NCBI GenBank assembly: GCA_951406725.2
Contig: OX597831.1
Location: 30,938,001 to 31,002,000 of the forward strand
DNA length: 64,000 nt
DNA from: Octopus vulgaris
Lineage: Eukaryota
Reading direction: 5' to 3'
A program made the translations under genes and the position numbers. Below, in pieces: positions 14,186 through 15,715 of this stretch. Under the pieces are notes generated by a model that was not told the DNA's origin, ran no database searches, and worked only from the letters and a program-made list of their open reading frames with translations. The number at the start of each line of letters is the position of its first letter. Position 1 is the stretch's first letter.

Positions 14186-15715
14186 TTTATTTTATGATAT
14201 TGGCTATGGAAGCCGTACATAGAGGAGACAGCACAAGGTGGGGACAAAAAACAAAACGAATGGGAAGGATGAATTGAATATAATGTAAAAGGAAATGAAG
14301 TTATTCGGCTCCCACCTCCTACCGACTTTATTGAACCTGTTAATATAACCTTTTTTAAAAAAAAAAACACTAGTTTATATACTAATATTGACAATGCCAT
14401 TGTAGCAGCTAATTTCCACTTTCTTGGAAAATGTCTGTTAAGTTCCTTTAAAATATATGCATAAATTACCCTTTTAGGCATTATGCTGATGTCCATTTTC
14501 TAAAGGCACCAATCAAAGTCAATTTCTTCCACGTAATTCCTCAATCTCGAGAGGTACTCTGGATCTGCCACTGCACAGCAAACGTCCTCGGGCAACCCCT
14601 TACCCTTGTTCCATCCACTTCTATTGCTCTGTCCCATGTCTTTATCTCATTACAAAGTTCTTCCTTTTTTTCTTTTGTACAATTTTACAAATTTATCCAA
14701 GGGTCGGGGTGGGGAAATTTGGGGCTCCTGTGTGTTCGTGCTTGTGTTTATGTCAGGCGAAGTATGGAGAGGATTGCTGTCAGTAGAGAGTAGTTGGAAT
14801 AGGTTGGGAGTTGGTGGGAGCCGGCTAGCTGTGGAATGGGGGTCATCCTTTACTGCGAGTGTGTTTTTTCTCTTCTTGTTTTCCCGCTGTTTCCCAGCCG
14901 GTATTCACCCCCTCTTCTTCGACGCTGGTACTGGGTTTTGTCTGTGGTACTGTTTCAATCTCCTTCTCGTGCTCCTCCTCAGCCTCCACGGGCAGTGGAG
15001 TACCAACAACTTTCTCGCTCTCTTGCCTCTCCTTAGCCTTCACAGGTGGTGGAGGACAATCCGCTCTAATGTGACCTTTCAGGCCACATTTGTAGCACCG
15101 CGGAATCCTCCCTTCCACTCTAACTCTTAGTGTCATTTCTCCGCCCGTAATGGTCTCTACCATATTTTCAGTGTCTCCCAGGGCCACCTGTATTACCATG
15201 TCTAGGCTCTGCACTTGCCAGTCCCTGTAGGGTGTTCTGATGGCCTGAGGGATCACTCCCCTCTCCTCCATGCCTAGCAGTATGGCAGCCACCAGCCAGG
15301 CTACATTCACTTCTGGGGGTACATCTTCTACCCTAACCCTGGAAGCCCGTCTCCCAAGGTATACGGGTAGAAGCACACCTTCGTCAGTTTTTAATGGTGT
15401 TGCTGAGTGCAGTCTGGCGGTAGCTATCTCCCGAAACTGCACCTCCATCGTTCCAAACTTTCTTCCCCTAGGAAATCCCTTGCCAGCCTGGTCTCGGCGC
15501 CTTTTCAACTTGGGTTGTTGACACTACTTCAATTTTTTCGTTGCCACCGCGTATGTTCTATAAATAAATGTCCTCTCATTTTGTTCTTTTAAAACTTTTT
15601 TAGGGTGGGGAACACCTTCACATTTTCCTTTTGCTGCTTCAGTATAATTTTTTTGTTTCTATTTCCTTGTCAATTTTATTCAGACACTTCACCAATTCTT
15701 CCTCAGATGACACAA
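14186..15715 (-). mobile_element. Second, diverged ORF1-only retroposon
   Basis: ORF1 homologous to 3285-4268; same 3' hairpin plus AATAAA terminus at 14186-14222; 5' side abuts a mariner fragment; no RT seen between ORF and 3' end. Confidence 0.7.
14843..15625 (-). pseudogene. Frameshifted gag/ORF1-like CCHC protein
   Basis: EGRIPRCYKCGLKGHIRADCP; an upstream frame gives VFPTLKKVLKEQNERTFIYRTY, which aligns to IIPPKKWLKDREDRTVVLRTY of copy 1; disrupted near 15480-15530. Confidence 0.75.

What the first reader, a model, noticed from the sequence alone, without database searches (positions are those of the whole stretch)
14186..15715. Second, deeply diverged ORF1-only element with the same 3' cis signal
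The proteins align from the N-terminus to the knuckle at low identity (RGVKYAT/RGRKFGT, FLPTY/LLPVY, GLPPDI/DVPPEV, EGRPPKC/EGRIPRC). The 3' termini remain alignable: CTGTGTACTGCCTTTATGGCAAATGTTTTGAAATAAA vs CTATGTACGGCTTCCATAGCCAATATCATAAAATAAA, with compensatory hairpins TGCC/GGCA vs GGCT/AGCC. Only ~650 bp lie between ORF and end, so both lack RT. This points to an old, diversified RT-less lineage with a conserved RT-recognition stem-loop rather than a one-off deletion.
Basis: partly seen in the sequence, partly recalled or inferred. Interest (0 to 1): 0.75.

Follow-up and report, generated by a model that had tools for sequence, protein, structure and literature searches.

The report
Octopus half-LINE jumping gene without polymerase
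This is a decayed copy of a multi-copy octopus jumping gene that encodes only an RNA-binding protein and no copying enzyme; it shares a small 3' hairpin tail with a very different neighbour of the same build, so both likely borrow the enzyme of a full-length retrotransposon that has not yet been identified.

Summary
Observation confirmed. 14186-~15716 (minus strand; E2) is a decayed copy, with its 5' end lost, of an ORF1-only non-LTR retroelement in an octopus genome. Its protein (two predicted RRMs plus one CCHC knuckle) is 24% identical to that of a TSD-bounded 2.25-kb element at 2731-4979 (E1). The last 37 nt match at 26 of 37 (the only such place among 127,928), the tails are collinear for about 175 nt, and the 4-bp hairpin has two double changes. 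Public assemblies of four organisms hold about 20 other, 84-88% alike copies of the ORF core, and a few contigs join the ORF end directly to the tail, so this is a family, not one deletion. Corrections: most of the '650 bp' is probably the frameshifted C-terminal part of the same protein; the 5' end abuts a broken mariner; no TSD is left. The class is known (HAL1, HeT-A, Ag-Sponge). Not shown: the helper LINE (Tx1-like most likely), and whether E1 and E2 descend from one old RT-less lineage or from separate ORF2 losses; a shared tail fits both. One paralogous contig leaves the alignment near the ORF end and may be an RT-bearing parent.

The parts
14186..14363 (-). Conserved 3' tail (part of a ~220-nt 3' UTR), collinear with the E1 tail; ends in AAAATAAA
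14202..14214 (-). 4-bp stem, 5-nt loop (GGCT-TCCAT-AGCC); 2 of 4 pairs doubly changed against E1
14409..14904 (-). Linker and probable C-terminal part of ORF1, broken into three frames; contigs of other copies carry one-base indels or another base at the breaks (about 14665-14671, 14598, 14502, 14435). Inferred; sequence likeness to relatives' C-terminal domains is weak
   Evidence: against:
14843..15523 (-). Longest open stretch of ORF1 (226 codons): end of RRM1, RRM2, CCHC knuckle (15053-15100), start of low-complexity linker
15470..15716 (-). N-terminal part of ORF1 in pieces (15524-15658 one frame, 15470-15531 another); start codon and 5' UTR lost
15725..16330 (-). Decayed, very high-copy Tc1/mariner 5' part (Mos1-type HTH); broken off where E2 begins; junction also bridged in organisms B and C
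14064..14185 (.). 3' flank that is itself repeated in all 4 runs; identity unknown, possibly the target repeat
2731..4979 (-). Companion element E1, 2,249 nt, complete between target-site duplications, no RT
2713..2730 (.). E1 target-site duplication, 18 of 18 identical to 4980-4997; lies inside a SINE whose other copies carry the empty site
4980..4997 (.). E1 target-site duplication, second copy
3285..4268 (-). E1 ORF1, 327 codons: RRM-RRM-CCHC-linker
3026..3544 (-). E1 second open frame, probably the shifted C-terminal part of ORF1; no family hit
2729..2900 (-). E1 3' tail with hairpin at 2745-2757 (TGCC-TTTAT-GGCA)

Best explanation
The stretch is a decayed copy of a multi-copy octopus retroelement that encodes only an ORF1 protein (two predicted RRMs and a zinc knuckle) and likely moved by borrowing the reverse transcriptase and endonuclease of a full-length, probably Tx1-type LINE that would recognise its conserved 3' hairpin tail. 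Shown: ORF1-type protein, no RT, multi-copy family, homologous tails, and an 18-bp TSD on the companion E1. Inferred: an intact master is transcribed, its ORF1p coats its own RNA and co-assembles with the helper's ribonucleoprotein (as proposed for HeT-A), the helper's ORF2p binds the last ~175 nt and primes target-primed reverse transcription at an A-rich nick. This copy later lost its 5' end in a deletion that also cut a mariner, and gathered at least five frame breaks. E1 and E2 are two far-apart families of one octopod ORF1 clade using the same tail; I lean about 50:35 towards an old RT-less lineage over separate ORF2 losses.
For: Type I ORF1 fold: model with 157 residues at pLDDT 90 or more, RRM matches at residues 14-103 (Z 9.0, rmsd 2.7, 83 aligned) and 106-183 (Z 8.4, rmsd 2.3, 71 aligned), tandem-RRM Foldseek hits, zf-CCHC above cut-off in E2. 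E1 complete at 2,249 nt with an 18/18 TSD in a SINE. Family: 19-20 contigs per run differ from the window at 15258, 7-13 at 14910, 4-6 at 14302, in 4 of 4 runs; long paralogous pieces are 84-88% alike. ORF end joined to tail in other contigs: 2 in X13 (about 14329 to beyond 14517), 1 in X7 (about 14345-14427), and a joint 14356-14607 in 3 of 4 runs (spans read from its from_end column). Tails 26/37 and collinear over ~175 nt while proteins are 24% identical. 65 relatives at E<=0.001, the named ones from octopods and one cuttlefish. Kojima 2018 (PMC5786205, passages read) describes the ORF1-present class; Ohshima 2013 (PMC3747384, passages read) describes compensated 3' stem-loops in stringent LINEs; L1-Tx1 has 80 families in O. 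vulgaris (PMC13282606 supplement row).
Against: No helper was read: no octopus genome and no DNA around any relative. One paralog (X3 record 11, with like pieces in X4, X7, X13) leaves the alignment at 14436 with up to 827 unaligned letters on the 3' side; it could be an RT-bearing parent, an insertion, or the aligner stopping at an indel. Depth across the ORF-tail junction is far lower than over the ORF core, and the loose ends there are among 3,654 hidden rows. E2 has no TSD. Type I ORF1s also occur in Jockey, I, R1, CR1 and L2 (PMC4120745, passages read), and few L1-clade elements are known to lend tails (PMC3747384), so the Tx1 call is a lean. The hairpin is small and weakly stable.
Confidence: 0.75

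Rival explanations
1. Separate ORF2 losses: E1 and E2 are each ORF1-only derivatives of a different autonomous LINE of the same clade, and the tail is simply inherited from those parents (repeated HAL1-type origin).
For: HAL1 arose several times in mammals (PMC5753468, passage read); ORF2 was lost in dozens of Drosophila telomeric lineages (PMC13534243, passages read). E1 and E2 are far apart in the tree with many lineages between them. A paralog departs at 14436.
Against: The tails keep 70% identity over 37 nt although the proteins are 24% identical, more than two long-separated parents would be expected to keep (inference). 2 of 2 clade members whose structure could be read lack RT. No near-identical ORF1 in the protein collections. 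ORFs on 6.6-6.8-kb contigs, the size of a full LINE, fall in the other clade (the contigs were not read).
Confidence: 0.35
2. This copy is a one-off internal deletion of an ordinary full-length LINE.
For: The locus is rearranged at its 5' end, has no TSD, and the junction region is thinly covered by other contigs.
Against: Other contigs with different letters also run from ORF end into tail; E1 has the same layout with intact TSDs; the tails of both begin within about 50 nt (E2) or two 65-nt repeats (E1) of the last coding frame.
Confidence: 0.1
3. Processed retrocopies of a tamed host gene (ZCCHC3-like RRM-RRM-knuckle protein) rather than a selfish element.
For: An Atlas cluster with ZCCHC3 RNA-binding domains scores 0.90 (169 of 256 features); relatives are annotated as genes in octopus; the end is an AATAAA.
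Against: At least 29 highly diverged lineages in one octopod clade, about 20 copies of the E2 type alone, no poly(A) run downstream of AATAAA, conserved terminal hairpin.
Confidence: 0.04
4. A gag-only LTR, DIRS or Penelope-type element.
For: CCHC knuckles occur in gag proteins (one search hits nucleocapsids over the knuckle only).
Against: No terminal direct or inverted repeats, an 18-bp TSD, tandem RRMs rather than a capsid fold.
Confidence: 0.02

Closest known systems
HAL1 (half-L1) of mammals
   Same: Non-autonomous LINE derivative encoding only ORF1p, with a LINE-type 3' end (PMC5753468, PMC5786205, passages read)
   Different: HAL1 comes from L1 proper, whose ORF1 is type II (coiled coil-RRM-CTD); here type I (RRM-RRM-one CCHC), in octopus, with a hairpin tail shared by families only 24% identical
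HeT-A and other ORF1-only telomeric Jockey elements of Drosophila
   Same: ORF1-only, RRM plus CCHC, rely on another element's ORF2; some form clades of 2-6 ORF1-only families (PMC13534243, passages read)
   Different: Telomeric head-to-tail arrays and three knuckles (PMC4120745); these elements are interspersed, have one knuckle, and E1 has an 18-bp TSD
Ag-Sponge of Anopheles (CR1-derived)
   Same: ORF1-present bipartite non-autonomous LINE (PMC5786205, passage read)
Tx1-clade LINEs (Tx1L, Keno, Kibi, Koshi; crocodilian Tx1 and SINEU)
   Same: Type I ORF1 variants in non-mammalian animals go with the Tx1 clade (PMC5203782, passages read); Tx1 members and dependants insert into other repeats, including mariners (PMC4494074, passages read); both elements here sit in or beside repeats
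   Different: No endonuclease or RT; target specificity not tested

Membership tests
ORF1-present non-autonomous LINE (HAL1/HeT-A/Sponge kind) | Encodes an ORF1-type protein | tested here: met
   RRM-RRM-CCHC by model, fold search and Pfam
ORF1-present non-autonomous LINE (HAL1/HeT-A/Sponge kind) | No ORF2 (endonuclease/RT) between ORF1 and 3' end | tested here: met
   657 nt after the longest ORF, no family hit in 4 tail frames; E1 complete at 2,249 nt
ORF1-present non-autonomous LINE (HAL1/HeT-A/Sponge kind) | Multiple independent copies of the ORF2-less form | tested here: inconclusive
   About 20 copies of the ORF core, but only 3 contigs and one joint seen to cross from ORF end to tail, and one paralog departs at 14436
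ORF1-present non-autonomous LINE (HAL1/HeT-A/Sponge kind) | Hallmarks of target-primed insertion (TSD, A-rich end) | tested here: inconclusive
   Met for E1 (18/18 TSD); E2 has the A-rich end but its 5' junction is lost
ORF1-present non-autonomous LINE (HAL1/HeT-A/Sponge kind) | 3' end shared with an autonomous LINE | not testable with these tools
   No genome; no DNA context for relatives
Tx1 clade | RT-domain phylogeny | not testable with these tools
   The element has no RT and the helper is unknown
Tx1 clade | Type I ORF1 (RRM upstream of CCHC) | tested here: met
   the feature is shared with other clades (PMC4120745)
Tx1 clade | Target-site preference | tested here: inconclusive
   Two sites only; 6 of 10 bases alike after the end; E2's flank is repeated
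HAL1 proper | Type II (Transposase_22) ORF1 from mammalian L1 | tested here: not met
   No Transposase_22 hit in 28 of 28 aligned relatives at E<=0.1; model shows two RRMs and a knuckle
Stringent-type 3' stem-loop | Conserved stem with compensatory changes near the 3' end | tested here: inconclusive
   2 of 4 pairs doubly changed, 0.12% by simulation, but only two sequences; function untested

The most novel reading that the evidence does not exclude
Octopods carry an old, independently radiating clade of dozens of ORF1-only retroelements (29 of 48 tree rows, Octopus to Argonauta) that lost reverse transcriptase once, diversified their RNA-packaging protein to below 25% identity, and stayed tied to one Tx1-type helper through a conserved 175-nt hairpin tail; many 'uncharacterized CCHC genes' in octopus annotations would be these elements.
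Probability: 0.4. Interest if true: 0.62.

Novelty: new member of a known kind. Interest (0 to 1): 0.42.

Why it matters
ORF1-only LINE derivatives are on record from three clades (L1, Jockey, CR1; PMC5786205). An interspersed octopus set with a type I ORF1 and a hairpin tail would add a fourth setting, probably Tx1, and would indicate stringent 3'-end recognition in a group where few tail-sharing partners are known. If the whole clade lacks RT, it is a natural experiment on why a parasite of a LINE keeps its own ORF1p over long times. Practically, it flags a set of octopus 'uncharacterized CCHC' gene models (10 named rows of the clade) as probable transposon ORFs.

Tried and rejected
Whole-genome search: no genome held. 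TSD partner for E2 within 15,000-30,000: none convincing. Rfam: nothing meaningful at 1,500-18,000 or 14,000-14,450; no tRNA. ORF1-RT fusions: none among 5,653 candidates of 1,508-4,305 aa or among the 7 hits from 8,000 candidates of 92-1,507 aa; weak evidence by the tool's own note. DNA around relatives: metagenome scan gave 27 knuckle-only loci, 0 of 27 matching the RRM core; 3 viral scans and 1 prokaryote scan gave nothing. No RNA holder listed; expression untested. C-terminal domain: profiles from 8 relatives did not find the E1 or E2 tail; of 10 pairwise tests for E2 only P0022 stood out (4 of 1,000 shuffles), 0 of 10 below 50 of 1,000 for E1; Atlas blank; a fold of P0015 gave low confidence there, so no fold search was run on it. 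A third tail-like spot at 59546-59579 (22 of 34) has no hairpin and was dropped as chance. The 3' flank matched neither the E1 5' end, the SINE nor, convincingly, the mariner (best 30 of 1,000 among 7 tests). No RT family among 148 of the window's 192 long non-repetitive frames. An end-anchored test was one base out of register (11 of 37) and was redone. Literature: 10 searches found no report of ORF1-only elements in cephalopods; the HAL1 origin paper was not held, Repbase/Dfam and the O. vulgaris library on Zenodo could not be seen, so the families may already have consensus entries there.

Full report
Setting. The window is microsatellite- and SINE-rich animal DNA; the named relatives of its proteins are from Octopus sinensis, O. 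vulgaris, O. bimaculoides, Argonauta and one cuttlefish, so it is taken as octopus.

E1, the reference. E1 spans 2731-4979 on the minus strand between two identical 18-bp repeats. It interrupts a SINE; 5 other SINE copies in the window carry the empty site. It holds a 327-codon ORF (3285-4268) and a second overlapping frame (3026-3544), and no RT. An AlphaFold model built on 28 relatives has 157 residues at pLDDT 90 or more. Fold searches place an RRM at residues 14-103 and another at 106-183 (Z 9.0 and 8.4) and rank tandem-RRM proteins first; a CCHC knuckle follows. That is a type I ORF1 as defined in PMC4120745 and PMC5203782 (passages read).

E2, the observation. The E1 protein aligns to 15604-14993 at 24% identity, E=1e-14. 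E2 is broken: a stop at 15524-15526, a detour through another frame at 15470-15531, a stop at 14843-14845. Upstream it runs into a decayed mariner at about 15716-15725 (HTH_48); most mariner copies continue with other letters there, and no TSD partner was found, so a deletion, at or after insertion, removed E2's 5' end. The last 37 nt match E1's at 26 positions, the only such match among 127,928; the homology runs about 175 nt (score 93, 0 of 1,961 random segments; 26 of 1,974 without the last 40 nt). The hairpin has two doubly changed pairs of four; 0.12% of random variants with as many changes do so. It is only weakly stable, and two sequences cannot establish covariation.

Family or accident. 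Assembled contigs of 4 of the 24 listed runs (organisms A, B, C, E) were laid on 13700-16400 at 82% likeness. The locus itself is in A (3 pieces, 0 differences), B and C; B and C also bridge the mariner junction. Beyond it, 19-20 contigs per run cover 15258 with another letter, 7-13 cover 14910 and 4-6 cover 14302; long paralogous pieces are 84-88% alike. Contigs that cross from coding region into tail: two in X13 (about 14329 to beyond 14517), one in X7 (about 14345-14427, three differences in 11 nt), and a joint 14356-14607 in X3, X4 and X7. Against this, X3 record 11 and like pieces in the other three runs stop at 14436 with 154-827 letters left over on the 3' side; the tool hid 55,715 pieces and 3,654 loose ends, so I cannot tell an RT-bearing parent from an insertion or an aligner stop.

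The '650 bp'. The tail holds three open frames that overlap. Indels seen in other contigs fall inside the needed overlaps and have the needed sign (14665 or 14671; 14598), most contigs at 14502 lack the stop, and a 2-base indel at 14435 leads to a stop at 14409-14411. Each indel shows in a minority of depth, but so does the one at 15532, where protein homology independently shows the break. So ORF1 probably ran to about 14409 and the 3' UTR is about 220 nt. Likeness of this part to relatives' C-terminal domains is weak, so this step is inferred.

The clade. A whole-library search gave 65 proteins at E<=0.001. Of 96 sequences held, 89 matched the core profile; 48 were kept after dropping those covering under 125 of 191 positions and a list of 20 near-duplicate cluster members. 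The tree splits 19 and 29 rows, both at 100/100. E1 and E2 lie in the 29-row group with all 10 named octopod rows, far apart: E1 on a 1.64 branch, E2 beside an O. bimaculoides protein (98/94). The root is a midpoint for drawing only.

Mechanism. An ORF1-only RNA with a LINE tail cannot copy itself; E1's TSD shows target-primed insertion, so a helper ORF2p is needed. The tail's conservation against 24% protein identity points to recognition by one or closely related helpers, as in stringent LINE/SINE pairs (PMC3747384, passages read). Keeping ORF1 fits the proposal that such proteins multimerise with the helper's (PMC5786205, passage read). Tx1 is the likeliest helper: type I ORF1, an Atlas lead to ZCCHC3-type RNA-binding domains (0.90; their link to Tx1 ORF1 is my recollection, not a result), long TSD, A-rich end without microsatellite, insertion in repeats, and abundant L1-Tx1 in O. 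vulgaris (PMC13282606, parts 1-2 of 3 and supplement search read). CR1/L2 remain possible. Two earlier notes of this scan on Tx1 elements that target other repeats were leads only.

Comparison and verdict. The element works like HAL1, HeT-A and Ag-Sponge, and is not HAL1 proper. Both repeated ORF2 loss and small ORF1-only clades are documented in Drosophila (PMC13534243, passages read). Ten literature searches found no cephalopod case, but Repbase, Dfam and the Zenodo library were out of reach; PMC8967140, PMC11203168 and PMC4494074 were read as passages, other hits as listings only. Interest 0.42.

Noticed in passing
window 14064-14185: The 3' flank of E2 is itself repeated, with depth like the E2 tail in 4 of 4 runs; no match elsewhere in the window or in Rfam. 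Possibly a preferred target repeat.
   Followed up: partly
window 4971-4997 and 14176-14188: E1 begins GTAGCTTTG directly after a TSD that contains GTAGCTTG, and E2's flank begins GCAGTT: the element's 5' end resembles its target, and the two targets share 6 of 10 bases.
   Followed up: partly
window 3425-3461 and 14845-14907: E1 and E2 both change frame in the same direction in the A-rich linker before the C-terminal part, and several database relatives stop there: slippage hot spot or programmed shift.
   Followed up: no
window 62197-64000 (minus): Decayed LINE with motifs that I recall as R4/Dong-like (restriction-like endonuclease end), followed by TAA repeats; no Pfam hit.
   Followed up: no
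window 5100-5217: A 118-bp near-perfect palindrome flanked by (TA)n just upstream of the SINE that hosts E1, MITE-like.
   Followed up: no
window 2345-2730, 8974-9389, 12564-12980, 18522-18901, 23843-24291, 25367-25760, 43137-43508: At least 7 near-complete copies of one SINE at 79-89% identity to the copy that hosts E1.
   Followed up: partly
window 56443-57079: 3.5 tandem copies of a 184-bp SINE-like unit.
   Followed up: no
proteins P0005, P0015, P0017, P0022, P0028, P0043, P0045, P0049, P0076-P0079: Long members of this ORF1 family end in a shared motif (about LKxxFPxDVG) with no Pfam family: an undescribed C-terminal domain; fold unresolved.
   Followed up: partly
protein P0002: An O. sinensis gene model fuses the first 47 residues of an E1-type ORF1 to an integrase-core protein, probably a mis-joined prediction over nested elements.
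   Followed up: no
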